A stretch of 40,150 nt of DNA from a virus, in the UHGV virus genome UHGV-0075716; one strand, written 5' to 3'. A program made the position numbers and the translations under genes. The stretch's first letter is position 1. Each line of letters opens with the position of its first letter. Positions 1 through 40,150 of this stretch are shown here, in pieces. The notes under the pieces were generated by a model, which was given only the letters and a program-made list of their open reading frames with translations, searched no databases and was not told the DNA's origin.

Positions 1-13
1 TGACGGGTAAAAA

Positions 14-1207
14 GTGGATAAAATAATTTTACCCACCGGATTTTTACCCATGCTCACCGTTAAGCAGATTGAAGCAGCAAAGCCGAAAGAAAAACCATAC
101 CGCCTACTCGATGGTAATGGCCTGTACCTTTATGTCCCTGTATCAGGGAAAAAGGTATGGCAGCTTCGCTACAAGATTGACGGTAAGGAGAAAATCCTGA
201 CCGTCGGAAAATATCCACTTATGACTTTGCAGGAGGCAAGAGATAAAGCATGGACCGCGAGGAAAGACATCTCGGTTGGCATCGATCCGGTAAAAGCGAA
301 AAAGGCTTCGTCTAACAACAATTCCTTTAGTGCGATTTACAAGGAATGGTACGAGCACAAGAAGCAAGTCTGGTCAGTAGGCTATGCAACTGAACTTGCA
401 AAAATGTTTGATGACGACATTTTACCTATCATCGGCGGCCTTGAAATTCAGGATATTGAGCCGATGCAACTGCTGGAAGTAATCCGCAGATTTGAAGATC
501 GCGGTGCAATGGAGCGAGCCAACAAAGCCCGCAGAAGATGCGGCGAGGTTTTCCGTTACGCTATTGTCACTGGTAGGGCTAAATATAACCCGGCACCTGA
601 CCTTGCTGACGCCATGAAGGGATACCGCAAGAAGAACTTCCCGTTTCTTCCTGCAGACCAGATCCCTGCATTCAACAAAGCACTGGCAACATTTTCAGGA
701 AGTATCGTATCGCTCATTGCGACCAAAGTTTTACGCTACACAGCCCTAAGAACGAAAGAGCTTCGTTCCATGCTATGGAAGAACGTCGATTTTGAAAACA
801 GGATTATCACCATCGACGCCAGTGTGATGAAGGGACGCAAAATTCATGTGGTCCCGATGTCAGACCAGGTGGTTGAACTTCTCACTACGCTAAGCTCCAT
901 CACCAAACCAGTATCAGAGTTTGTTTTTGCCGGGCGCAACGATAAGAAGAAGCCAATCTGCGAGAACGCGGTTCTACTTGTGATCAAACAAATCGGCTAT
1001 GAGGGTCTAGAAAGCGGTCACGGATTCAGGCATGAATTCAGCACGATTATGAACGAGCACGAATGGCCTGCTGACGCTATTGAAGTGCAACTGGCACATG
1101 CCAACGGCGGATCTGTGCGCGGTATTTACAACCATGCTCAGTATCTCGATAAGCGCAGAGAAATGATGCAGTGGTGGGCGGATTGGCTTGATGAGAAGGT
1201 AGAGTGA
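14..1207 (+). CDS. int: Tyrosine integrase, P4/IntS-like; probable true start ATG at 50 (385 aa)
   Basis: ORF track 397 aa; N-terminus after M at 50 reads MLTVKQIEAAKPKEKPYRLLDGNGLYLYV, typical of the arm-binding domain of P4-family integrases; C-terminal catalytic region with HGFRHEF...RGIYNHAQY motifs. Confidence 0.9.
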   Translation: MDKIILPTGFLPMLTVKQIEAAKPKEKPYRLLDGNGLYLYVPVSGKKVWQLRYKIDGKEKILTVGKYPLMTLQEARDKAWTARKDISVGIDPVKAKKASSNNNSFSAIYKEWYEHKKQVWSVGYATELAKMFDDDILPIIGGLEIQDIEPMQLLEVIRRFEDRGAMERANKARRRCGEVFRYAIVTGRAKYNPAPDLADAMKGYRKKNFPFLPADQIPAFNKALATFSGSIVSLIATKVLRYTALRTKELRSMLWKNVDFENRIITIDASVMKGRKIHVVPMSDQVVELLTTLSSITKPVSEFVFAGRNDKKKPICENAVLLVIKQIGYEGLESGHGFRHEFSTIMNEHEWPADAIEVQLAHANGGSVRGIYNHAQYLDKRREMMQWWADWLDEKVE

Positions 1208-1358
1208 TCCGCCTTAACAACTATCGAAGAGCACAAAGCCTTGTGTGTCTCATAGGCTATGAAACAATCATTTTACATGGTTACTTCACTACTTCCGCAC
1301 AATATGATATCGTTCACAATCTAAAAACATTAATAATTTATCCATTACCGCGGTTAAT

Positions 1359-1385
1359 GCCCGTCGCTTCCAACGGGCTTTTTTG
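1359..1385 (+). terminator. Putative rho-independent terminator downstream of int
   Basis: GCCCGT-loop-ACGGGC hairpin followed by TTTTTTG. Confidence 0.5.
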
Positions 1386-1446
1386 TAAATTATATTTTTA
1401 TTACCTTATATTAATATTGGTAATATGTCTGCATGATGTTTTATAT

Positions 1447-2188
1447 TTATTGCGTGAGCTTCGCATGATAGCTGGAGCATCTCTTGTCATCACTAATTAG
1501 CTCCGCTTTATCCGTTCTTGCCCATATTATATTTCTTTTTATTATTTTTGCTGGATTACCGGCTGCTGCACACATAGATGGCACATCTTTAGTTACAATA
1601 CTCCCATACCCAATGACAGATCCGCTTCCAACAGATACCCCTTTCATTATAGAGACATTTCTCCCTACCCATACGTAACTAGATATAATGATATCTTTTG
1701 CCCAATTAATCCTTTTTTTGCTATGAATATCAAATATAGGATGCCCATCTGATGCACGCAAAATAACATCTCTTGCTATCATGCAGTCATGGCCAATTGT
1801 AACATTGCACTTATCAGTGACGACTTCAAAACCTGCACCTATTGTCGTTCTTCTACCGATAATAACTTTTGAACCTTTTGTTGCGACAATATCACCTTTA
1901 ATCTTACTGTTTTTATGTATTCTTACGTAATTATTATCCCCCCTAAATATTACGGTAAGCCATCGACACTCAACATCATCTTCTATAATAAGTTTGTTAT
2001 TGTTTCCATTGAACTGAACTTTATTCTCTTTGCTATTTACAAGATCTCCACATACAAAAATATTACCTGACCCATTATCATCAATGGAAAACGAGTCTTG
2101 AGTCTTGAGTCTTGAGTCTTGAGTCTTGAGTCTTGAGTCTTGAGTCTTGAGTCTTGAGTCTTGAGTCTTGAGTCTTGAGTCTTGACAT
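1447..2188 (-). CDS. neuO: Hexapeptide-repeat (LbH) O-acetyltransferase, NeuO-like, phase-variable; frame interrupted in this sequence (OFF)
   Basis: ATG at 2188..2186 with AGGA 7 nt upstream is followed at once by 13 heptamers; that frame stops at TGA 2083..2081. The LbH body (IGHDCMIARDV..., VWVGRNVSIMKGVSVGSGSVIGYGSIV) is open from 2094 to 1447 in another frame. 12 or 15 repeats would fuse them (~244 aa). Confidence 0.75.
2094..2184. repeat. 13 perfect tandem copies of heptamer AGTCTTG (AAGACTC on coding strand)
   Basis: Counted directly: 91 bp, 13 x 7, ending 1 nt before the start codon of the acetyltransferase. Confidence 0.97.
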
Positions 2189-2341
2189 GTTAGTATCCTA
2201 CGTTATTTTACCACTAGTTACTTTTCTTGTCATTAAAAAGCATTTAAATTTTTATATTTAATTTCGTTGACGTCAATGTTTTTTGCCAATGTACTTACTT
2301 CTTTATGTGAGCAGTTCATATTTTTGACGCCAACGAAACAT

Positions 2342-5287
2342 TTAGTGCTTCCCTTCTATTAAGTCTAACCTAGCTTTTATTCTTTCTATTTCTCTGCGCT
2401 GCCATGCCGCCTCGATATAGAATAAGAGATCAGGTCTGACCCCCCATCTAGATCCTGCTGGCGTTATTTCAACGCGCTCAATGATGTCTTCTATTACCAT
2501 CACTGGATTATCATCCTCATCAACAATGATGCTCCCGTCATTATCAGTCAGCGGCATTTCCCTTTGGCCAGTAATGACGTCATCATATACTGCGGGATAA
2601 TCGTCATAGCAAAGAAAGGCATAGCGGCATGTTGTGCTTTCTTCTTCCATGAGTCCGTGAGAAATAAGAACATCACGAAGTTGCTGCGCGATTACACCAT
2701 GATGTATCCTCGCCCCTTCTTCCCCCTTTATAGCGACAGCGTTCAGCCATTTATAAGCGATATACCTGACGTCACCCCAGGCATCCAGCAATGCTTCGTC
2801 AGGAGAGACCGGCTCTGTCTTTAATGTTCCGTCACTGGTAACCACAGGATTGGAGCCAAGATAAACTGTCGAGAACCTGTTTCCCGGACCACCAAGAGCA
2901 TTTACATTATCAAGATAAGGTTTAACATCTCCGTTCTCAAAAAGATGTTCGAGTGCGTTATATACCGCGCGACGTGGAGTACTGCTTCCGGAACCATGCA
3001 ACGTTATCATTGCACCATCTGCTGAAGACGTTGTTTCACCGCCGCTAACGATTAATCTCTGAGCGGTAACATCATCAGACGGTACTTTCTTCGCAATAAT
3101 GGCGTAATTACCCTCAAGTTTGACTTCCGCGCGAACTTGTCCTGATGTACCTGCATGGACAGTCAGTGACTGGACGGCAACATCATCTGTGAAATCAACG
3201 GGTACAGGAACCGTCCTCACGCCTGACGTCGACATAAAAGTAGGAAGCGTTCTGTTAGGAGTGGCTCCGTAGACAAAATCCCTTGAAACAAATTCTTCCT
3301 GTTTAATTTTCACCCTGAAACAATACAAATCAGCCGGGTGACCATCGTGAACATAAGGATATTTTCTGTTGTTATCCCCTATGCTCCATGGGTTTAGAAA
3401 ATCTTCCCCACCGAAAATGTAGTACAGCCAGTTGTCTTTGATACAAACTGAACCAACACCAACCGCAGAGTTAACTATTCCGCCCTGATAAATCTGATCA
3501 GTAACATTAACCCACTCTACATTATCCAGACTCCACTCATTGACGTTAACTCTGGTCATAAATGTTCTTGGATAATTTCCTGCATAACGGTTATCAGGTT
3601 CTCCTCCTTCCCACTCACCAAATGCGCGCTCACTGCCAAAAATAACCAGCTCATCGCCAACTTTGGCAAAAGGAAGGTTTGAGTGATGAACATTATTTGG
3701 GAAGCGAAGAGAATTCCATGATGTACCTAAATCAGAGCTTCTGTGCAATGAACTACCGGGTTGAGTACTTAATGTCCCCCTGGTCGTCAGATACAGAATG
3801 CCATCATAATATTTTACACATGGCTCAGATGCATTCGCCTCATATTCTGCAGGTATGCGTCTGCGAACAAAGCTACCAGGAGAACCGAAAGCATCAGAGA
3901 AATAGAGTATCCCAAGCTCGCGTGGACCAATATCACCATTATGGTAGCCAACAGCAAAACTGTTATCGCTAATCGTCGCAAAACTGTGAATCTCAGTAAC
4001 AGGAGTGCTTCCGTCAACAAAAGAAGGAATAGTTCCAAGACTGGTTTTTCTCCATGGTGACGAGTGAAATGATGTGCCAAAACTCCAGTATCTACCCTCG
4101 TTATTCTGATCCACATCCTGGGTATTTTGCGTCGTAACTGTAAAGGTATTTTTATCAATAACAGTAGTCACCGTCATATTCCCGGTAACATCTGTAACAC
4201 CAGAGTTTGAGAAGTTGACAAAATCACCAGCAAATAATCCGTGATCAGTAATGCGAATATAAGCGACTTGCTGATTTGCTGCTTTCGTTATACCACCATA
4301 AACGCGAAGGCTGCGACTCATTGGGCGATCCCACAACTCTGCAACCTGCAGTTTATTTCCTCTCACGGTCCGCGTCTCAATTACAGCAAAAAGGCGATTT
4401 CTGACAACCCCCATACTCATGCAGTGATAGTTAACTGTGGGATAGTTTTCATGTAAATCTGTAAGCCATTCCGGCGTTGTCCAGGTCTTCCCGTCATCTC
4501 CTGAGCGAACCCATGCAACATGGAGGTTATTTACACCATGGCGGTCTCCAGCCATAAAAGGCGCATAGATGACATTGTCATATACAAACGTTTTATCCTG
4601 CGTCCAGGCGTTGTACCACGGTGTATCTGTAATTTTAAATAACTCTCCCTGGATAAAATCTTCAGAAGCATAAAAAAGAGGCTGACCCGGTATTCTCTCA
4701 AATAAAAAACGAGCATTTTTAAATCGACTGACATCTGGAAGAGTTGATACTTTAAAAGTAAGCCCTCGCCCATCTATCTTTTCACCACCTGTTGCAACAG
4801 AAAGTAATTCTGATAGAGCTGATGTATCATCATGAACACCATCACCAATAGCCCCCCAACCTCTTACATCATAACTGTCTCTCCATCTTGCTATCTGAAG
4901 TTTTGGGTATTTATTCGCTCCATCTGGGTCTTCTAATTGCTGCCGTAGTTGATCTGGGTCATACTTCAGCACATTAGGAAAATAGAACTGCTGCGCACCA
5001 TACGCATCATAAACAGCCATAGAATGGCCTTGCACGGTAACGAATTTGGCAATCTGTCCGTTATATACAGGATATCCAGCAGCGTTAATGATGATTGGTT
5101 GAGAAACAGGAACGTGAGAACCGTCTTCGTTCTCCACATAAGCCTGAATCTGGTTTTCAGGATTTACAGGGTCAGTATCAATTTTACCGATATAAATTTT
5201 GCCATTAGCTACGGCTTTAAAAGAACGCGCCATAGTGAAGAGTTGCGAAGGCATCGATACAATCACATTGGCTGTAATGTCTGTCAT
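2342..5287 (-). CDS. Tailspike: P22 gp9-type head-binding N-terminus fused to endosialidase (sialidase beta-propeller) with C-terminal intramolecular chaperone domain
   Basis: N-terminus [11 protein letters not shown]...[14 protein letters not shown]...VLKYDPDQ resembles P22 tailspike head-binding domain; Asp-boxes SGDDGKTW and SSDLGTSW; C-terminal ...VVTSDGTLK...[12 protein letters not shown]... resembles autocleaving chaperone domains. Confidence 0.85.
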
Positions 5288-5409
5288 TTAATTTGCTCCA
5301 GATACAAGGAATCGCCGAAGCATGGCTACGGTGAATTTTGGGCATAAAAAAACCCAGCCGAAGCTGGGTCGTTGCGTTGGTTATTGACCTACACTTTTCG
5401 TGCAGGTAG

Positions 5410-6333
5410 TTAAAGTTTTATTGAGTGGCACGCTCTATCACGTATCGCTGCGAATGAAGCTATCTCTTTAAGTGCCCAGCTTTGCTCAGCCATTAAATGG
5501 CGAAGTGCTTTTAGTTCAGCTCTTACTGCTGAAACGTCATACCCCGCTTTTGTCAGAATATTGATTAGTTTATACGCCGGACTGCATTCAACGAGTGCGC
5601 TGCGGTCAAGAGCAACAGTATCACCGCATTGCTGCCTGATAATGGCGTAAGGTGCATTTTCAGCAAACCATGAAATCGGGAAGTTAATATCCAGTTTTGG
5701 CGCTGGTAACTCTTCTTGTTTGCCAATGAACTCACCTTCAAGTGGAACTCGAGCTGCAAGTGACAGTGCTTCGGTGAACTGCTCCTCACTGATTTCTTTG
5801 TACGAACATCCAAAATGGGATTTCAGTGAGGACCACATGGTGATCATCGCCTTAGCCTGTTTTTCTTTTGGCAGAGACTGACCGCGACTCATGACGAGTT
5901 GTTTAATGGCTTCCTGCTGTTCAGTGGTGATTTTACCCGGCAACGCCTTTTTAGCTTTGCGTGGGTTAACTACATGACCTTTAGTCCAGTACTCGTATAG
6001 CACATCGTCACACTCTTCCTGATACTGGATTACCTTGTCGCGGATTTCAGGACGGACTTTGTTTGGCTGAATGCTTGAAAGCCAAGCCGCAAACTTACGA
6101 AAGGCAAGGCATATCATTAACTGTTTACCGCCAGCAGAAGGTATTTCGATTTCCGAAATACCTTTGACAAATCTCTGTTTTAATTTAACAAATTGAGCAG
6201 CCCAAACCATACCCATGCCTTCTACAACGGGTTTCATAGGAACGTAAGGTTCATTGTTAATGCTGACCAAAAAGAGATTTGTTCCGTGGAATGGAACGTT
6301 GATTGTATGTTCTGCAATTGCTACACTCGTCAT
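5410..6333 (-). CDS. ant: Antirepressor Ant (AntA N-domain plus KilAC-type C-domain)
   Basis: 307 aa; position downstream of arc and upstream of tailspike as in P22 immI; N-terminal pattern similar to P22 Ant. Confidence 0.8.
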   Translation of the reverse strand: MTSVAIAEHTINVPFHGTNLFLVSINNEPYVPMKPVVEGMGMVWAAQFVKLKQRFVKGISEIEIPSAGGKQLMICLAFRKFAAWLSSIQPNKVRPEIRDKVIQYQEECDDVLYEYWTKGHVVNPRKAKKALPGKITTEQQEAIKQLVMSRGQSLPKEKQAKAMITMWSSLKSHFGCSYKEISEEQFTEALSLAARVPLEGEFIGKQEELPAPKLDINFPISWFAENAPYAIIRQQCGDTVALDRSALVECSPAYKLINILTKAGYDVSAVRAELKALRHLMAEQSWALKEIASFAAIRDRACHSIKL

Positions 6334-6407
6334 GTCGTTAATTCCTATGCGTGGTTTTACGATACCGAAGCCCTGACTGTTACCGCAGTTGGGGCTTCAC
6401 TGTTTTG
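6332..6407 (+). ncRNA. Candidate sar-like antisense sRNA covering the ant start/RBS
   Basis: Sigma70-like promoter TTGATT(6299-6304)-17 nt-TACACT(6322-6327) on the strand opposite ant; imperfect hairpin 6367-6398 followed by T-rich tract; transcript would be ~75 nt and antisense to the ant RBS. Confidence 0.4.
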
Positions 6408-6566
6408 ATTTCTTTGCCGCATCAAGCATCACTTCTGAAAACGTGCGCTTGCCACTGAATACTCTTTCTCTTCTCAATTTTTCGTTCGTGCCAAATGATT
6501 CGCCATGAACAAAATTTGGTCTTAAAATGGTAATCGCAATCTCTTTGACTACTGCATCCAAGCGAA

Positions 6567-6719
6567 TCACACCGTTACCCCCTCTCTCTTCAGGCTGTCT
6601 ATCAGGCGCTTGATAACCTCTGAGTTAAACGACCTGCACTCTTCCTTTGCCCTGCTACCGATAGCATCCTTTAACGACTGCGGCATCCTTACCAAAATCC
6701 TACTTATTTCTTTCTCCAT
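6567..6719 (-). CDS. arc: Arc-type ribbon-helix-helix repressor (start at internal ATG 6719, ~50 aa)
   Basis: MEKEISRILVRMPQSLKDAIGSRAKEECRSFNSEVIKRLIDSLKREGVTV; RSFNSEV motif like P22 Arc (NGRSVNSEI); GGAGG 6 nt upstream of ATG. Confidence 0.8.
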   Translation of the reverse strand: MEKEISRILVRMPQSLKDAIGSRAKEECRSFNSEVIKRLIDSLKREGVTV

Positions 6720-6757
6720 GTTACCCTCCCCACAAACAACTCTTTCCGAATACAAAA

Positions 6758-6813
6758 GATAGCAAAGTGAGTATATCTAGTCAAAATTTTTTTGCATACA
6801 CTTTGATATCAAA
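6758..6813. promoter_or_regulatory. arc-mnt divergent control region with candidate operators
   Basis: TAGC...ATCTA inverted half-sites at 6758-6782 and a perfect 12-bp palindrome TTTGATATCAAA at 6802-6813, 20 bp upstream of mnt. Confidence 0.35.
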
Positions 6814-6833
6814 TTGAATACCAAAGGTGTGAT

Positions 6834-7082
6834 ATGGCAAAGGGTGTGTCAATTTCTCCAACTACGGTAAGAATCCCTGAATCTTTACGCGAGGCTCTTT
6901 CTGTCAGAGCATCAAAAAATGGTCGCTCTGTTAACTCCGAGATCGTCATGATTTTGCAAGCCGCGATTGATGAAGATAGGTCGCCAAAGTCAGTTGAGTC
7001 ATTTGCTCAGCAAGAAGCTGACAAATTCAAAGAGGCGCTGCTTGAGACGCTAAAGACCATGTATGGTAAGGATGAAAAATAA
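6834..7082 (+). CDS. mnt: Mnt-type ribbon-helix-helix repressor
   Basis: 82 aa; KNGRSVNSEIVMILQAAI and C-terminal KFKEALLETLKTMYGK resemble P22 Mnt (ANGRSMNSEL..., ...VFDTLKDLYKK). Confidence 0.85.
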   Translation: MAKGVSISPTTVRIPESLREALSVRASKNGRSVNSEIVMILQAAIDEDRSPKSVESFAQQEADKFKEALLETLKTMYGKDEK

Positions 7083-7618
7083 TGCTGCACACAATTCATT
7101 TCTTATGCCCCGTTAACACTGCCACTGTTGGGCAACTTCAGAACCACTGTCTCACCGCATTATCTCAGGGCGCAACTGAATTAAATATCCATATATCAAG
7201 TCAGGGAGGGGAAACTGCCGCTGGCTTTACTGCGTATAACTTTCTTAAGTCACTCCCTGTTACCGTTAGAACTCACAACATAAGCAATGTTGAATCCATA
7301 GCTAATATCGTTTTCCTGGCTGGCTCAGAACGTTTCGCAAACCCATTATCAAGATTCCTGTTACATCCTCTATTATGGGGCTTTGCCACCCCAGCCGCCG
7401 ACCATGCCAGATTGAGAGAGTACGGGAAATGCCTCGATAACGATCTTGATCGCTTCGTTGAGACGTTCAATATCGACATCGGAACCCATATTAGGTGGGA
7501 ATCCCTGATAGCAGACTCGACCATTTTGGATGCTAACAAGGCTCTTGAGCATGGCATAATTAATTCCATAAAAACTGCAAGGCTGGTATCCAATCAGGCA
7601 AACTGGTGGGTTGTTTGA
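7082..7618 (+). CDS. ClpP-family (S14-like) serine peptidase homologue, translationally coupled to mnt
   Basis: Gap-free match to ClpP core: ISSQGGETAAGFTAYNFL...VTVRTHNISNVESIANIVFLAG versus INSPGGVITAGMSIYDTM...[20 protein letters not shown], Ser aligned; His in LLHPL; Asp later. Start overlaps mnt stop (TAATG). Confidence 0.7.
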   Translation: MLHTIHFLCPVNTATVGQLQNHCLTALSQGATELNIHISSQGGETAAGFTAYNFLKSLPVTVRTHNISNVESIANIVFLAGSERFANPLSRFLLHPLLWGFATPAADHARLREYGKCLDNDLDRFVETFNIDIGTHIRWESLIADSTILDANKALEHGIINSIKTARLVSNQANWWVV

Positions 7619-7643
7619 TGGGTAAATCATGATTACTCCTTAT

Positions 7644-7676
7644 AAAAAACCCACCTGACGGTGGGTTTCATTTCTT
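7644..7676. terminator. Bidirectional rho-independent terminator between the ClpP-like gene and the lipoprotein gene
   Basis: A-run, CCCACC-TGAC-GGTGGG hairpin, T-run. Confidence 0.7.
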
Positions 7677-8094
7677 AATCTTGCTTCGTAGAAGGTATAA
7701 GAGATGCATTTGCCTCTTTTGGCTTCAATGTATACATCCCACCATTAAATGGATCAACAGCAAGCCAACCGATTAACCCACCAAACACAAGGTTTCCACC
7801 AATATACCAACCATTAGCATTGGCTTTGATTGGCAGGGTAACTGGTTCGTACCCATCCTTTTCCATAGTGATCTGGTAGCTCTTTTTGCCAAAATAACTA
7901 CCATCTGACTTGGCAAGAGTTACTCCTTGTGGAGTCTTGCCTTGCGCAACAATCACGCCTGATTCATCTTTTACCTTAAAGCTCGCACCGGAAGGGTTGC
8001 TGTTCACTTGCACAAGTTGCGTTTCATCACCAACAATAGTTGCGCACCCAGATAACATCATAGCGCCAGCAACGACGCCAATAATCCTCTTCAT
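7675..8094 (-). CDS. Lipoprotein (signal peptide with lipobox LSGC), function unknown
   Basis: MKRIIGVVAGAMMLSGCATIV...; start at internal ATG 8094; Gly-rich C-terminal segment. Confidence 0.7.
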   Translation of the reverse strand: MKRIIGVVAGAMMLSGCATIVGDETQLVQVNSNPSGASFKVKDESGVIVAQGKTPQGVTLAKSDGSYFGKKSYQITMEKDGYEPVTLPIKANANGWYIGGNLVFGGLIGWLAVDPFNGGMYTLKPKEANASLIPSTKQD

Positions 8095-8211
8095 ATCAAT
8101 TTCCATATTTAAAAAACCGGAAACATCCTAATGACAAACCATTCAAATGTGAAGTAGGCAAAAGATGTTTGCTTTTTTCATGGTATCCTGCTCAAAACTA
8201 AGGAGGTTGGT

Positions 8212-8439
8212 GTGAAGCGATGGTTCCTCATAATTACTGTTTTCGCGATCATTTACACTATTTTCCCTGCATTAAAAGCACCAATGCAAATAATTTCGCT
8301 TGCAATAATTGCAATTGGTGCTTTCATTGCAGTAGCCGTACTTGTGTTTAAGGTTTTAAAGTTTTTAGTTTGGCTATCAAAAGACGATGGATGCAAAGTT
8401 CATCAAGAAAAAGAAGGCAAAATAACCAAAGTTGACTAA
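8212..8439 (+). CDS. Small hydrophobic membrane protein (two predicted TM helices)
   Basis: GTG start with AAGGAGG 5 nt upstream; AT-rich; two long hydrophobic stretches. Confidence 0.5.
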   Translation: MKRWFLIITVFAIIYTIFPALKAPMQIISLAIIAIGAFIAVAVLVFKVLKFLVWLSKDDGCKVHQEKEGKITKVD

Positions 8440-10559
8440 CTGTCACTAGCGAGCCATGTAATAATCCCCGTGCGGGCAATGGTTTTTGCTTCATCTGTTG
8501 ATAAGGTTTTCTCCCATCTCTTAAATGCCCCAGATTGCATCAGTTTCCTTTCTATTACGCGTCTCACTTCTGCTCTGTCTACTGGTGCGTTTTGCAGGCG
8601 AAATAGCATTGATTTAAACTCAGGAGAAGACAGTAGAGCATCAGCAGCCTTTATCCTGCTTGTTTTCCCTGACATCAATGCTGACGTTATCACCCCTGTT
8701 GCACCTACACCAGGAAGACCAGATAAGCTTGTAATACCTTCCGCCGCAGCAGCTTTTGAGGCTATTCCATAAATTTTTGCTAGACTACCCTTTTCTTTCA
8801 GAAAGTTATTAACTTGCTGATCCACAAGACTACTAGCATACTGCTTACCAGTATTGAGTCTATTCATAGCCTTAGCTGCTTGATAAATCGTATCAAGGCG
8901 CTTTGATGCATCTGTGCCAATAGCATCACGGAGAGCCTTCATATTGGCCCCATTGCGTGACATTCCGTTATACCATTTTACAAATCCATCAACTCCTAAT
9001 TGCTGACCAGGTGATTTGGCATAGCTGGTAAATGCTTTATTCATTGAGGTGAGCGCAACTTCCTGCCGCATATCCTTTGGAATCGACTTCATTAATTGCC
9101 TAAAGTCGCCACCGTTTCCTTTTGCCATATTAACAACAGCACTTTCAACTTTTGGAATTGCTGATTGCTGAAGTTTTCTACCCAAGACGGTTACAGCATC
9201 ATCTTCAATGGATTTTCGTTTTTTTACCAACTCCTTACCAAGCGTCCATAATTCCCCTGCGCCATATTTTTCTGCGACAGCCTGTTGGTCATCTGTTATG
9301 GCTGCATATAACTTTTTAAGAACACCTGTTTCTTCATCCTTGAATGGACCAGAGCCTTTGCCAATAGCTTGTCCAACCTGCTTTCTAGCGAGATCTAAAC
9401 GCCCATACGTTGGCAAGGTGTTTGGATCAAGTCGGTTCAATGTCCGCTTCATTATTGGAGATAATTCATCAATTCCACCTATATCATCAGCAAAATCCTC
9501 TAAAAAATTCAATGTATTAGTTGCCTCAATCCGGTCTCTTACAGGAACCTTTTCGGCAATTTTGTTGTAGATGTTATCTGACTGATTTTGTAATGATGAA
9601 ATGGTTTTATCAAAATTATCTGCAAGCCTGTCAGAAACCAGTTGCTTATCAAGGCTTCCCCCAAATGAAGTTATCATTTCATCAGCTTTTCTTCCTAATT
9701 CAGTAATAAAACGCTTATGCGCCTCACTAATCTCTGTGCCAGGGAGACTTGCCACTGCATTATCAAGAGCCCTGACAGCAGGATTATTAGAGATCATGCC
9801 TGGAGTGGCATAATTTTCCAGTTCTAGCTCACGAATAGCATTTATCGCGTTAAAATCAGGATTAACTTCATCGGCGAAATCTTGAATAGCTCGTTGCCCG
9901 CCGATAAATTTATTGTCCATTGCGCCAGCAGCTTTCTTTAACGTTGCTTTAGATGATTTACTACCCATCCCTACGGATGAGCGATAAATATCTCCGGCAC
10001 TATTTTTAATTTTTCCTGCAATCTTCCCAAGCGCTGGACCAACAATCTCTGCTACAGGGCCAGCCACAGCGCCAATAGCAGCTCCAGAAGCAACATCGCT
10101 ATTTGTTCCATTGGCTACAATAGCCCCTTCTCCAGCACCAAGCCCTGCGGCGGCAGCCAGCCTTGCCGCCCCTTTCGGAACCTGAGAAATAATCCCACCA
10201 CCACTAACAAATGGTGCTGCTTGTCCAACGAACTCACCAACATCTTGTGCGGTTGATGGTTTTGCCGCTAACTTCTGCTGTAGAGACTGAATTGCGGCTT
10301 GCTCTTCTGGTGTCATATCCTGAAATAGACCAACACCTTTACCAACATCCATCAATCCACTGAGAACGCCATACATAAAACGGTCGAAGCCGTTAGCATT
10401 ATTAACAACATTTTCCTGTCTGGAGTTTTCCTCTGGTGAAACCAAAGGTGATTGCTGCTGCTCTGGTTGGGAATCAAGCACAAAACCATCAGGAAGCTGT
10501 GAGTTATCAGGCTGATTATCGAGAACAAATCCTTCGGGTAAACCTACATCGGTTGCCAT
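8436..10559 (-). CDS. Ejection (E) protein, P22 gp16-like
   Basis: 707 aa; last gene of the gp14-gp7-gp20-gp16 series by position; N-terminal duplicated PDGFVLD.QP motif. Confidence 0.7.
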   Translation of the reverse strand: MATDVGLPEGFVLDNQPDNSQLPDGFVLDSQPEQQQSPLVSPEENSRQENVVNNANGFDRFMYGVLSGLMDVGKGVGLFQDMTPEEQAAIQSLQQKLAAKPSTAQDVGEFVGQAAPFVSGGGIISQVPKGAARLAAAAGLGAGEGAIVANGTNSDVASGAAIGAVAGPVAEIVGPALGKIAGKIKNSAGDIYRSSVGMGSKSSKATLKKAAGAMDNKFIGGQRAIQDFADEVNPDFNAINAIRELELENYATPGMISNNPAVRALDNAVASLPGTEISEAHKRFITELGRKADEMITSFGGSLDKQLVSDRLADNFDKTISSLQNQSDNIYNKIAEKVPVRDRIEATNTLNFLEDFADDIGGIDELSPIMKRTLNRLDPNTLPTYGRLDLARKQVGQAIGKGSGPFKDEETGVLKKLYAAITDDQQAVAEKYGAGELWTLGKELVKKRKSIEDDAVTVLGRKLQQSAIPKVESAVVNMAKGNGGDFRQLMKSIPKDMRQEVALTSMNKAFTSYAKSPGQQLGVDGFVKWYNGMSRNGANMKALRDAIGTDASKRLDTIYQAAKAMNRLNTGKQYASSLVDQQVNNFLKEKGSLAKIYGIASKAAAAEGITSLSGLPGVGATGVITSALMSGKTSRIKAADALLSSPEFKSMLFRLQNAPVDRAEVRRVIERKLMQSGAFKRWEKTLSTDEAKTIARTGIITWLASDS

Positions 10560-11887
10560 TGTCCGTTCCTATAAATGAGTTTCTGACCAGTTTTAGGGTT
10601 CGTTGCCGTCGCGCCTTCTGATATCCCACTTGGCGCAGCTTTTGTCTGCCCATTACCACCTTGTGGTGTAGGCTGCGCTGGGACATCGTCAAATAGCTTG
10701 GCCTTCCTTCTCCCTAAGCTTTTTTTCAGCCCTTGAGGAATAGTATCTCCATACGTATCCAGATATTCGTCTACCTGCTGGTTAAACTGCTGCCCCATAG
10801 CGTTGGCGTTAATTTTGGCTGCGTTAACAATGTTATCCCTCGCTTCCTGTGACAAGCCATTCCCTGCATTAAGCTGGTCTACATATCCTTTTATCTGCCC
10901 CCATATGCCATCAGAGCGCATGACCTGAACCTGTTCACCTTCGCGAACAACTGACTGAGGGTCGAGAGACTTCATGTAATTAAAGATAATCCCAAGTTGG
11001 GCAGCGCCAGTATTTACCTTGCTAAGGGCTTGCAGAGAGTTTGCCGCCGCTCTGACAGAGTTATAATTTTTGCCAAAATTGGTAATATCAGAATTTAATC
11101 CCTTAATTAAGTCTGCTGACGGCTTACCTTTTTGCCCCAGCTCCATTAGCTTCAATCCCATCTCATCTGAGTGCATTTGTGCCCGCTGAGCCCTGTCTAG
11201 TTGAGCGTTTTGGATATTTGCCCATCCTCTCGCATTCTCCATGTCAGCCTGACGGATGCTTTCATCCAATCGCCCTTGCTCAAGTCGACGCCCCTCCATT
11301 CGATCTTTGATATCGAAATACTTCTCATGACCGAGAGAAAATAGTGCCAGATTACCTGTGAAGTGCTGGAAGCCCTGCGGGTCATTAACCTGCATTTCCG
11401 CAATAGTTTCTGGAGGGATACCTAAACGACGCATCTCCTTTTCGTTATCCATCATGAACCTGCCAAATGCACCCGGACCAAGCGACGAAGCGACCTGAGC
11501 CTTAAGCGCCAGATTGCCAAAATCATCCCGCTGGGCGTCATCGACATACCCCATGCCTTTACGGACTTCCTCAAACTCTTCGGGGAATGCTGTAATAAGA
11601 TTACGCATCTGCTCCCTGTCGCCGGACGCATAAGCATCCGCATAACCTTTCTGGAATGCCGCTTTACGTTCCTGCTGTTGCTGCTGCTTATAAATATCAG
11701 CAACTCCAGCCAGACCACGTAACGCGGTCAGACCAACGTTATTTGCACCTGAGCGAGCCAGTTCATTGTTTTCGCGGATCAGACCAAGCGTTGCGTTAAT
11801 GTCGCTTGCCTTTGGCGCATTCTCATTTTGCGTACCGATGCCAGCCAGAAAACCACCAGAATTAATACCCTGTTGCCACGTAGCCAT
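10544..11887 (-). CDS. Ejection protein, P22 gp20-like
   Basis: 447 aa; position and size in P22-type order. Confidence 0.7.
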   Translation of the reverse strand: MATWQQGINSGGFLAGIGTQNENAPKASDINATLGLIRENNELARSGANNVGLTALRGLAGVADIYKQQQQQERKAAFQKGYADAYASGDREQMRNLITAFPEEFEEVRKGMGYVDDAQRDDFGNLALKAQVASSLGPGAFGRFMMDNEKEMRRLGIPPETIAEMQVNDPQGFQHFTGNLALFSLGHEKYFDIKDRMEGRRLEQGRLDESIRQADMENARGWANIQNAQLDRAQRAQMHSDEMGLKLMELGQKGKPSADLIKGLNSDITNFGKNYNSVRAAANSLQALSKVNTGAAQLGIIFNYMKSLDPQSVVREGEQVQVMRSDGIWGQIKGYVDQLNAGNGLSQEARDNIVNAAKINANAMGQQFNQQVDEYLDTYGDTIPQGLKKSLGRRKAKLFDDVPAQPTPQGGNGQTKAAPSGISEGATATNPKTGQKLIYRNGQWQPM

Positions 11888-11897
11888 TGATTACCCC

Positions 11898-12587
11898 TTA
11901 AAACAACGAGCCAAGCAGACCAAGACCAGCACCGATACCAGCACCCCACGGAGTTGATAGCTCGAGAGCACTGGCTATGCCACCACCCAAAAGCGCACCG
12001 GATGCAGCACCACTAACACCCTGCCGCAATGCTGACGGTCGGTTGGCGTTTGCCGCTGCAAGAGCAGCGCTTTGCTGTGAAATCTGGCTCATGTTGTTGG
12101 CATATGTCTGCCCGGCGTTTGCCTGCCCCTGAAGAGCGCCAAGACCGATATTTGCCAGGTTGTTGTAATTGTTCATTTGTCCAGACAGCCATTGCTGACC
12201 AAGCGTTGGTGCGATTGTTGCTAACTGATTACTGGTTGCGGTGGAACCCAATCCACCTGTTGCTTCCGCTGCCGCCAGACTCTGATAGCGAGCCTGACCA
12301 GCAAGATCTTTGTACTGCTGAGAGTTGTAATACTGGTTAAGTGCCTGACCTTGCCCTTCCAGAGACGATAAGTTCTCAAGGCTGCCGACATGCTTCCCAG
12401 CCAGAGGAGTAAACGGCTTCAGGTTGTTCATGATGGTATTGAACTGCTGATTTTGCAGGTCTGCGGCATACTTCTGAGCTTCTGCGGCATACTTTGCACT
12501 TTTATCAGAGCCACCTTTCCCGCCTTTTTCAGGGCAATAAGGTTCCTCGCCGCGCAGTTTTCTGCCCAGCTTAAATGCATATAACAT
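11898..12587 (-). CDS. Ejection protein, P22 gp7-like
   Basis: 229 aa (same length as P22 gp7); Gln/Ala/Gly-rich; position. Confidence 0.7.
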   Translation of the reverse strand: MLYAFKLGRKLRGEEPYCPEKGGKGGSDKSAKYAAEAQKYAADLQNQQFNTIMNNLKPFTPLAGKHVGSLENLSSLEGQGQALNQYYNSQQYKDLAGQARYQSLAAAEATGGLGSTATSNQLATIAPTLGQQWLSGQMNNYNNLANIGLGALQGQANAGQTYANNMSQISQQSAALAAANANRPSALRQGVSGAASGALLGGGIASALELSTPWGAGIGAGLGLLGSLF

Positions 12588-39856: not shown

Positions 39857-39899
39857 TACCTGATTTGCAGGTTCGATTCCCTATTCGGAGATAGCACTC

Positions 39900-40100
39900 A
39901 TGCAACACGAACTACAGCCTGATTCCCTGGTTGATTTGAAATTCATCATGGCTGATACTGGCTTTGGTAAAACCTTCATCTACGACCGGATTAAGTCCGG
40001 CGACCTGCCAAAAGCCAAAGTTATCCACGGTCGAGCAAGATGGTTATATCGTGACCATTGTGAATTCAAAAATAAGCTCTTAAGCCGCGCCAATGGGTAA
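39900..40100 (+). CDS. xis: Excisionase/recombination directionality factor, AlpA/TorI-like
   Basis: 66 aa; HTH pattern ...GFGKTFIYDRIKSGDLPKAKVIHGRARW... typical of AlpA-family regulators; located at the opposite end of the element from int. Confidence 0.75.
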   Translation: MQHELQPDSLVDLKFIMADTGFGKTFIYDRIKSGDLPKAKVIHGRARWLYRDHCEFKNKLLSRANG

Positions 40101-40150
40101 AATAGCGGGTAAAATATTTCTCACATCTAAAAAACACCATTCCAATCAAT

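What the first reader, a model, noticed from the sequence alone, without database searches (positions are those of the whole stretch)
2094..2184. Heptanucleotide slipped-strand switch at the 5' end of an O-acetyltransferase gene, currently phase OFF
Thirteen perfect tandem AGTCTTG units (AAGACTC on the coding strand) start 1 nt after ATG 2188..2186. From that ATG the tract encodes (SRLKTQD)n and runs into TGA at 2083..2081. The hexapeptide-repeat acetyltransferase body (2094 to 1447) is open in a different frame. Losing one unit (12) or gaining two (15) fuses ATG to the enzyme, so repeat number acts as an ON/OFF switch. This matches the published neuO system of E. coli K1 prophage CUS-3 (polysialic acid O-acetylation, ON when repeat number is a multiple of 3). 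It is therefore a known mechanism, here caught in the OFF state.
Basis: partly seen in the sequence, partly recalled or inferred. Interest (0 to 1): 0.8.

Follow-up and report, generated by a model that had tools for sequence, protein, structure and literature searches.

The report
neuO capsule-acetylation phase switch, OFF
This is the well-known neuO gene of an E. coli K1 CUS-3-like prophage, whose 7-base repeat at the gene start switches capsule O-acetylation on and off; here it has 13 copies, an OFF setting, so the finding is correct but ordinary.

Summary
Window 2093..2183 (minus strand) holds 13 perfect AAGACTC units that begin two bases after ATG 2188..2186. From that ATG the frame stops after 35 codons, at TGA 2083..2081. 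The left-handed beta-helix acetyltransferase body (2094..1447) is intact in another frame.

That body is 213/215 identical to crystallised NeuO (PDB 3JQY). The DNA is 99.4% identical to phage CUS-3, where the same tract is annotated "poly(psi) domain, 19 copies". The gene lies between the prophage integrase and the endosialidase tailspike, as in CUS-3.

Editing the window's own sequence gives a full-length protein only when the copy number is a multiple of three (12 gives 244 aa, 15 gives 251 aa). No ATG, GTG or TTG in the enzyme frame bypasses the tract.

Across 89 complete E. coli genomes with about 99-100% identical flanks for most, the inferred copy number ranges from 7 to 53 (34 alleles). 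One third are in frame. Ten loci checked by sequence agreed with this rule, and RefSeq annotation agreed in the nine E. coli genome loci.

The system has been published since 2005, so novelty is "already known". The only caveat is that "OFF" describes the assembled consensus, not every cell in a culture.

The parts
2186..2188 (-). neuO start codon ATG
   Evidence: The sequence reads ...TAGGATACTAAC ATG TC AAGACTC.... RefSeq CDSs of in-frame alleles start at the equivalent ATG (locus position 513).
2093..2183 (-). Poly-psi variable-number tandem repeat: 13 exact copies of 5'-AAGACTC-3' (period-7 extent 2093..2185)
   Evidence: TRF reports 100% matches, score 186. Direct count. None in 100 shuffles. 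The same tract is annotated 'poly(psi) domain; contains 19 copies of heptanucleotide repeat AAGACTC' in CUS-3 CP000711.
2081..2188 (-). OFF-state reading frame: a 35-aa product MSRLKTQD...SRLVFH ending at TGA 2083..2081
   Evidence: the ORF listing and translation. The same ...SRLVFH/R ending occurs in other alleles with n mod 3 = 1 (n = 7, 19, 52).
1447..2094 (-). NeuO catalytic body: 215 codons of left-handed beta-helix O-acetyltransferase plus TAA. It is in the frame reached from the ATG only when the copy number is a multiple of 3.
   Evidence: 213/215 identical to PDB 3JQY 'polysialic acid O-acetyltransferase', E = 2.6e-142. Pfam Hexapep PF00132, E = 4e-11. In-silico 12 or 15 copies give 244 or 251 aa ending ...SYHAKLTQ.
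1447..1782 (-). 111-aa C-terminal fragment ORF, from the first ATG in the enzyme frame. This is what annotation pipelines call when the gene is OFF. There is no evidence that it is expressed.
   Evidence: the ORF listing. RefSeq annotates only this fragment (WP_011478229.1) in out-of-frame alleles with n = 14, 52, 7, 19.
2196..2199 (-). Shine-Dalgarno-like AGGA, 7 nt upstream of the ATG
   Evidence: Read from the sequence. Conserved in all ten related loci. Function inferred, not tested.
2205..2233 (-). Promoter-like site ATGACA-17-TAAAAT with an upstream TG. A second candidate, TTGACG-17-AAAAAT, lies at 2248..2276.
   Evidence: Consensus scan only, and not enriched over shuffles: 7 sites found against 4.8 +/- 2.1 expected. 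Candidate, not shown.
14..1207 (+). Prophage integrase, the left neighbour of neuO and convergent with it
   Evidence: ORF. NCBIfam integrase domain, E = 3e-70. Collinear with CUS-3 int.
2342..5287 (-). Endosialidase tailspike gene (981 aa), immediately upstream of neuO on the same strand
   Evidence: ORF. Collinear at 98.6% identity with CUS-3 siaK1 'endosialidase tailspike protein'.

Best explanation
The locus is neuO, the polysialic-acid (K1 capsule) O-acetyltransferase gene carried as cargo by a CUS-3-like, P22-like prophage of E. coli. A tract of AAGACTC heptanucleotides sits two bases after the start codon. Seven is not a multiple of three, so each gain or loss of a unit by replication slippage shifts the reading frame. 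Ribosomes starting at ATG 2188 reach the enzyme body only when the copy number is a multiple of three. With 13 copies, as here, translation ends after 35 codons and no enzyme is made. This is the phase-OFF genotype, which would give a non-O-acetylated K1 capsule. Losing one unit (12 copies, 4 RLKTQDS heptads, 244 aa) or gaining two (15 copies, 251 aa) turns it ON. In ON alleles the translated repeats form a disordered N-terminal poly-psi extension, and the literature reports that its length raises catalytic efficiency linearly. Shown here: the sequence anatomy, identity with NeuO and CUS-3, the frame rule, the absence of a bypass start, and between-strain hypervariability. Taken from the literature: the slippage mechanism, enzyme activity, the rheostat effect, and the phenotypes (resistance to K1 phage and neutrophils, altered serum sensitivity and immunogenicity).
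For: The repeat and frames are as described. The body is 213/215 identical to the NeuO crystal-structure sequence 3JQY, and the next-best match is meningococcal OatWY (2WLC, E = 3.7e-31). The DNA is 99.4% identical to CUS-3 CP000711, with the tract annotated as the neuO poly(psi) domain. The order int-neuO-endosialidase is the same and that arm is 98.6% identical. In-silico editing of the window for n = 0..18 gives a full-length ORF only when n mod 3 = 0. Of 5,426 complete E. coli genomes, 178 carry a match to the region and 158 carry it at 80% coverage or more. In 89 of the 92 tabulated genomes the length difference from the window is an exact multiple of 7, which gives 7..53 copies, 34 alleles, and 29/89 (33%) in frame. 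Four genomes whose flanks are 100% identical to the window carry 27, 27, 35 and 52 copies. Sequence checks of 10 loci gave n = 19, 12, 15, 14, 52, 7, 18, 18, 21 and 19, with a full-length ORF exactly when n mod 3 = 0. In the nine E. coli genome loci among these, RefSeq annotates the full CDS from the upstream ATG only for in-frame alleles and a 111-aa fragment otherwise. MS7163 has 21 copies, which equals the published, Sanger-verified value. That culture was 93% 21 copies, with 20 and 22 as minorities (PMC13001214). CE10, where a neuO deletion has a phage phenotype (PMC9659370), has 18 copies and is ON. The published rule and the rheostat effect are in PMC3046976, citing Deszo et al. 2005 PNAS 102:5564.
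Against: Nothing in the sequence contradicts this. Four limits remain. The copy number comes from one assembled consensus. Switching within a culture, protein expression and capsule O-acetylation cannot be tested in silico. The window does not show whether the host carries the K1 (kps/neu) capsule genes that provide the substrate. The promoter is only a consensus-level guess.
Confidence: 0.97

Rival explanations
1. The count of 13 is an assembly or sequencing miscount of a repeat tract. The true majority allele in the source culture may then be in frame, so 'OFF' would be an artefact.
For: Repeat tracts are error-prone in assemblies. One RefSeq genome (729_270514_x_12) shows an interrupted tract of 12 units, then 22 imperfect nt, then 17 units, which looks like a consensus error. 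IMG/VR contigs break inside the tract (L133, L136, L137). Published cultures are mixtures of neighbouring lengths (PMC13001214).
Against: The 91-nt tract here is perfect and shorter than a typical sequencing read. The flanks are clean. About two thirds of public genomes are also out of frame, as expected for a freely switching locus (PMC13001214 reports 65.6% OFF).
Confidence: 0.07
2. The tract is bypassed. Active enzyme would be made in the 13-copy state from a non-canonical start codon or by ribosomal frameshifting on the repeats, so the switch would be leaky rather than OFF.
For: A repeat-less NeuO (+0) is active according to PMC3046976, so any initiation just after the tract would give a working enzyme. 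ATT and ATA codons exist in the enzyme frame near the tract.
Against: There is no ATG, GTG or TTG in the enzyme frame between the upstream stop and ATG 1782. No Shine-Dalgarno-like motif precedes the ATT/ATA codons or ATG 1782. The literature reports truncated, inactive protein for out-of-frame numbers (PMC3046976).
Confidence: 0.02
3. The gene is a decaying prophage pseudogene, and the repeat is a neutral microsatellite without regulatory meaning.
For: The ATG frame is interrupted. Some annotation pipelines call only a fragment or a pseudogene.
Against: The 215-codon body has no stop or frameshift and is 99% identical to the active crystallised enzyme. In-frame and out-of-frame alleles coexist among genomes with near-identical flanks, in a 1:2 ratio. 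Experiments show reversible switching and phenotypes (PMC13001214, PMC9659370, PMC8653822).
Confidence: 0.01

Closest known systems
neuO of E. coli K1 prophage CUS-3 (Deszo et al. 2005; CP000711; NeuO structure PDB 3JQY)
   Same: The same gene. The protein body is 99% identical and the DNA 99.4% identical. The AAGACTC unit is the same, in the same position 2 nt after the ATG. The rule is the same (ON only at multiples of 3), and so is the position between int and the endosialidase tailspike gene.
   Different: Copy number is 13 here and 19 in the CUS-3 reference; both are OFF. Two conservative substitutions (I/V) lie near the N-terminus of the body. The rest of the prophage is a mosaic variant: the regions 5385..11674 and 28658..34011 have little or no megablast match to CUS-3.
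OatWY, sialate O-acetyltransferase of Neisseria meningitidis serogroups W-135/Y (PDB 2WLC)
   Same: It is the closest structurally characterised relative after NeuO itself (E = 3.7e-31). It is also a left-handed beta-helix trimer that acetylates a sialic-acid capsule (PMC3046976).
   Different: It is chromosomal and part of the capsule locus, not a prophage gene. It has no poly-psi heptanucleotide tract or N-terminal heptad extension (PMC3046976).
Translational phase variation by 5' coding repeats in other pathogens: Haemophilus influenzae lic genes (CAAT)n and Neisseria opa (CTCTT)n. This comparison is from my own knowledge, not tested here.
   Same: The logic is the same. A tandem repeat whose unit is not a multiple of 3 sits just after the start codon, slippage shifts the frame, and a surface structure switches ON or OFF stochastically.
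   Different: The unit length and sequence differ, and so do the genes. Those repeats are not reported to tune enzyme activity when in frame, and they are not prophage cargo.
Prophage-encoded surface-polysaccharide modification (lysogenic conversion): Shigella phage Sf6 oac and Salmonella P22 gtrABC. This comparison is from my own knowledge, not tested here.
   Same: A P22-like temperate phage carries a polysaccharide-modifying enzyme near its attachment site and tailspike end. The enzyme alters the phage's own receptor and protects the lysogen from related phages. NeuO reduces K1-phage killing (PMC9659370, PMC13001214).
   Different: Sf6 Oac is an integral-membrane acyltransferase and is not repeat-controlled. 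gtr phase variation is epigenetic (Dam/OxyR), not slipped-strand.

Membership tests
neuO / CUS-3 poly-psi phase-variable polysialate O-acetyltransferase | Enzyme body is a NeuO-type left-handed beta-helix (hexapeptide-repeat) acetyltransferase | tested here: met
   213/215 identical to PDB 3JQY over the whole 215-aa body, E = 2.6e-142. Pfam Hexapep PF00132, E = 4e-11.
neuO / CUS-3 poly-psi phase-variable polysialate O-acetyltransferase | [quoted passage not shown] | tested here: met
   The sequence reads ATG TC (AAGACTC)13 GTTTTCC... at 2188..2086 on the minus strand. The definition is quoted in PMC3046976.
neuO / CUS-3 poly-psi phase-variable polysialate O-acetyltransferase | Full-length translation only when the copy number is a multiple of three, with three units encoding one RLKTQDS heptad | tested here: met
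   In-silico series n = 0..18 on the window's own sequence. Ten natural alleles checked by sequence. RefSeq CDS calls follow the same rule in the nine E. coli genome loci.
neuO / CUS-3 poly-psi phase-variable polysialate O-acetyltransferase | Carried by a CUS-3-type P22-like prophage, between the integrase and the endosialidase tailspike gene | tested here: met
   Window 1..5384 is collinear with CUS-3 143..5568 at 98.6% identity. The attR core TTGCAGGTTCGATTCC is at 39865..39880.
neuO / CUS-3 poly-psi phase-variable polysialate O-acetyltransferase | Copy number is hypervariable (variable-number tandem repeat behaviour) | tested here: met
   Tested between strains only. 89 genomes give 7..53 copies and 34 alleles. 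Genomes with flanks 100% identical to the window carry 27, 35 and 52 copies. Within-culture switching of this isolate is not testable here.
neuO / CUS-3 poly-psi phase-variable polysialate O-acetyltransferase | Catalytic residues of NeuO are retained (His147, Trp171, Arg137, Met134 in 3JQY numbering, per PMC3046976) | tested here: met
   The only two differences from 3JQY are I/V substitutions at body positions 4 and 12. All later positions are identical (alignment).
neuO / CUS-3 poly-psi phase-variable polysialate O-acetyltransferase | Host makes alpha-2,8 polysialic acid (K1 capsule), the only substrate | not testable with these tools
   The window covers only the prophage and 270 nt of flank. 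The kps/neu cluster lies elsewhere in the genome.
neuO / CUS-3 poly-psi phase-variable polysialate O-acetyltransferase | Acetyl-CoA-dependent O-acetylation of polysialic acid, with reversible OAc+/OAc- form variation in culture | not testable with these tools
   This needs biochemistry or fragment analysis. It is shown for other strains in PMC13001214 and PMC8653822.

The most novel reading that the evidence does not exclude
The evidence does not exclude that the OFF state has an activity of its own. One possibility is that the 35-aa MSRLKTQD-repeat peptide is active. Another is that the 111-aa C-terminal fragment from ATG 1782 is made, or that the untranslated body still serves as a DsdC binding platform, since DsdC binds inside the neuO coding sequence (PMC9659370). 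Separately, this prophage is a mosaic CUS-3 variant whose exact combination of modules is absent from 5,426 complete E. coli genomes. That is ordinary lambdoid mosaicism.
Probability: 0.03. Interest if true: 0.4.

Novelty: already known. Interest (0 to 1): 0.12.

Why it matters
NeuO-mediated O-acetylation changes the antigenicity of the K1 capsule. It also changes resistance to K1-specific phages and neutrophils, serum sensitivity and desiccation tolerance in neonatal-meningitis, urinary and avian pathogenic E. coli (PMC13001214, PMC9659370, PMC8653822, PMC3046976). For this window, the practical value is correct annotation. The locus should be called 'neuO, phase-variable, 13 repeats, out of frame', not a 111-aa 'acyltransferase' fragment or a pseudogene. 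The strain should be expected to throw OAc+ variants at high frequency, because a single-unit loss restores the frame. Nothing here opens a new question.

Tried and rejected
(1) I looked for a canonical alternative start that bypasses the tract. There is none in the enzyme frame before ATG 1782.

(2) I tried to read Deszo et al. 2005 (PMC555961). It is not held, so the original claims are cited through PMC3046976 and PMC13001214.

(3) I scanned GTDB species genomes for (AAGACTC)x4, hoping to find neuO-like switches in other species. More than 120 hits came back, but all 120 stored loci have flanks unrelated to neuO and lie in unrelated phyla. They are independent heptamer arrays, not homologues. 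My crude ORF-position analysis of them was inconclusive, because high-GC genomes give many spurious ORFs.

(4) An IMG/VR scan gave 9 loci. Six are CUS-3-like neuO (n = 8, 12, 9, and three cut by contig ends). Three are unrelated.

(5) I tried to find the window's source genome among complete E. coli genomes using the non-CUS-3 part, 5300..12000. The best match was only 80% coverage at 97.3% identity, so the source is not in that set.

(6) The promoter scan is not enriched over shuffles, so no promoter claim is made.

(7) NCBIfam has no NeuO-specific model, and all hits fall below their curated cut-offs. This explains the generic RefSeq name.

Full report
**Observation**

On the minus strand the sequence reads TAGGATACTAAC ATG TC (AAGACTC)x13 GTTTTCCATTGATGAT.... 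Tandem Repeats Finder reports a single period-7 array at 2093..2185 with 13.3 copies, 100% matches and score 186. It is by far the strongest array in the 40-kb window. A direct count gives exactly 13 AAGACTC units at 2183..2093. The dimer of the unit occurs 12 times in the window, all within the tract, and never in 100 dinucleotide-preserving shuffles.

ATG 2188..2186 opens a 35-codon frame, MSRLKTQD...SRLVFH, closed by TGA 2083..2081. A second frame is open through the tract down to TAA 1449..1447 and encodes 215 residues after the repeats. That frame has no ATG, GTG or TTG before ATG 1782.

**What it is**

- The 215-residue body matches the crystallised polysialic acid O-acetyltransferase NeuO (PDB 3JQY) end to end: 213/215 identical, E = 2.6e-142. 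The only differences are two I/V substitutions near its start.
- The next-best structure is meningococcal OatWY (E = 3.7e-31), followed by galactoside and maltose acetyltransferases. Pfam finds the hexapeptide repeat.
- NCBIfam has no NeuO-specific model, which explains the generic RefSeq name 'acyltransferase'.
- At the DNA level, 1300..2400 is 99.4% identical to Enterobacteria phage CUS-3 (CP000711). That record annotates the tract as 'neuO poly(psi) domain; contains 19 copies of heptanucleotide repeat AAGACTC'.
- Window 1..5384 is collinear with CUS-3 143..5568 at 98.6% identity. It carries the integrase (14..1207, plus strand), neuO, and the 981-aa endosialidase tailspike gene (2342..5287, minus strand).
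- The CUS-3 attR core sits at 39865..39880. The window is therefore essentially one CUS-3-like prophage plus 270 nt of flank.

**How it works**

I tested the frame rule on the window's own sequence by rebuilding the gene with 0 to 18 units. A full-length protein ending ...SYHAKLTQ appears only at n = 0, 3, 6, 9, 12, 15 and 18. For n mod 3 = 1 the product ends ...SRLVFH, and for n mod 3 = 2 it ends ...IFLYVEIL. Thirteen copies is therefore OFF. Losing one unit gives 244 aa with four RLKTQDS heptads, and gaining two gives 251 aa. No canonical start codon in the enzyme frame lies before ATG 1782, so nothing bypasses the tract.

**Variation in public genomes**

The 1,101-nt query matches 178 of 5,426 complete E. 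coli genomes, 158 of them at 80% coverage or more and always on the chromosome. The query is covered end to end, so the length of each match reports the copy number.

- In 89 of the 92 tabulated genomes the length difference from the window is an exact multiple of 7.
- This gives 7 to 53 copies and 34 different alleles, with 29/89 (33%) in frame.
- Four genomes whose flanks are 100% identical to the window carry 27, 27, 35 and 52 copies. The tract therefore changes far faster than the surrounding DNA.

I verified the length-based inference by sequence in ten loci, with n = 19, 12, 15, 14, 52, 7, 18, 18, 21 and 19. In every case the ORF from the ATG was full length exactly when n was a multiple of 3. 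RefSeq annotation of the nine E. coli genome loci follows the same rule. In-frame alleles get a CDS from the upstream ATG, and out-of-frame alleles get only the 111-aa fragment WP_011478229.1.

Two strains with published phenotypes fit. MS7163 has 21 copies, exactly the Sanger-verified number reported. CE10 has 18 copies and is ON (PMC13001214, PMC9659370).

Two Danish poultry isolates have near-identical genome size and coordinates but carry 19 copies versus an interrupted tract equivalent to about 32 units. This suggests change within a lineage. The interrupted tract may instead be an assembly error.

**Literature**

- Schulz et al. 2011 (PMC3046976), citing Deszo et al. 2005, describe the AAGACTC repeat as inserted two nucleotides after the start codon, with 2 to 93 copies seen in isolates. 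Slippage most often changes the number by one copy, and full-length NeuO is made only at multiples of three. The RLKTQDS heptads are disordered and dispensable, and they raise catalytic efficiency linearly with their number.
- A 2026 study (PMC13001214) found 3 to 53 repeats in 64 complete genomes, with 65.6% out of frame. It measured an MS7163 culture at 93% 21 copies, 1.9% 20 copies and 5.4% 22 copies.
- NeuO reduces killing by K1 phage and is transcriptionally dependent on DsdC, which binds inside the gene (PMC9659370).
- My independent survey reproduces the published range and ON fraction.

**Rivals**

- A miscounted repeat cannot be excluded from one consensus sequence. The tract is perfect and only 91 nt long, so I rate this at about 7%.
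- Leaky expression through non-canonical initiation or frameshifting has no sequence support.
- Pseudogene decay is contradicted by the intact, 99%-identical body and by the 1:2 mix of in-frame and out-of-frame alleles among near-identical loci.

**Verdict**

This is a textbook contingency locus known since 2005, caught in an OFF allele, so the novelty rating is 'already known' and interest is low. Two refinements apply. The repeat also acts as a rheostat on enzyme activity when ON. 'OFF' describes the assembled consensus and not every cell.

The useful practical outcome is annotation. The locus should be labelled neuO (phase-variable, 13 repeats, out of frame), not a 111-aa acyltransferase fragment.

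Noticed in passing
Single MAGs have many loci, for example Acidobacteria SZAS-13 on at least 14 contigs and the Iophon symbiont on at least 10. Flanks are unrelated to neuO, and the arrays grade into variant heptamers (AGGACTC, AAGACTA, AAGGCTC). Several end 0-10 nt before a possible start codon (L017, L018, L062, L099, L120). They look like independent, genome-wide heptamer-array families and may be worth a separate look as possible multi-locus contingency repeats.
   Followed up: partly
window 30558-30652: Two clusters of three 11-nt direct repeats (GTTGGACAACC), about 30 nt apart, lie inside a 296-aa replication-initiator-like ORF (30148..31038, minus strand). That ORF is immediately upstream of a DnaB-like helicase ORF (28722..30173, minus strand). 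The layout is typical of lambdoid origin iterons inside the O-like gene.
   Followed up: partly
window 5385-11674 and 28658-34011: The prophage is a mosaic relative to the CUS-3 reference. These stretches (the immI/antirepressor/ejection-protein region and the replication/immunity region) have little or no megablast match to CP000711. Related E. coli prophages annotate a ClpP-like protease and a Panacea-domain protein in the first region. No complete E. coli genome in the collection has the same combination; the best is 80% coverage at 97.3% identity.
   Followed up: partly
window 39865-40150: The CUS-3 attR core TTGCAGGTTCGATTCC is at 39865..39880. The 270 nt beyond it are outside the prophage. 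They open an ORF (MQHELQPDSLVDLKFIMADTGFGKTFIYDRIKSGDLPKAK...) that resembles, from memory, an AlpA-type excisionase/regulator of another integrated element. No tRNA gene was found in the window.
   Followed up: no
L008 (E. coli MS20659, NZ_CP082073.1 846423-849712): Some E. coli genomes (H135-H140) carry the endosialidase tailspike gene but lack neuO, and in MS20659 the adjacent integrase as well. In MS20659 the tailspike end lies next to ybhB, so this is an endosialidase prophage without the acetyltransferase cargo at a different chromosomal site.
   Followed up: partly
L141 (E. coli 729_270514_x_12, NZ_CP160121.1): The neuO tract is interrupted: 12 perfect units, then 22 nt of imperfect repeat (AAGATCTCGAGACTCAAGTTGC), then 17 perfect units. 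It is in frame overall, yet RefSeq annotates it as a partial pseudogene. It is either a long-read consensus error or a rare stabilising interruption of the repeat.
   Followed up: partly
window 1359-1378: A GC-rich hairpin followed by a T-run (GCCCGTCGCTTCCAACGGGC TTTTTT) sits on the plus strand, between the convergent integrase and neuO genes. It reads as the integrase terminator. On the neuO strand the hairpin is preceded by an A-run and has no T-tail, so it is at best a weak bidirectional terminator.
   Followed up: no
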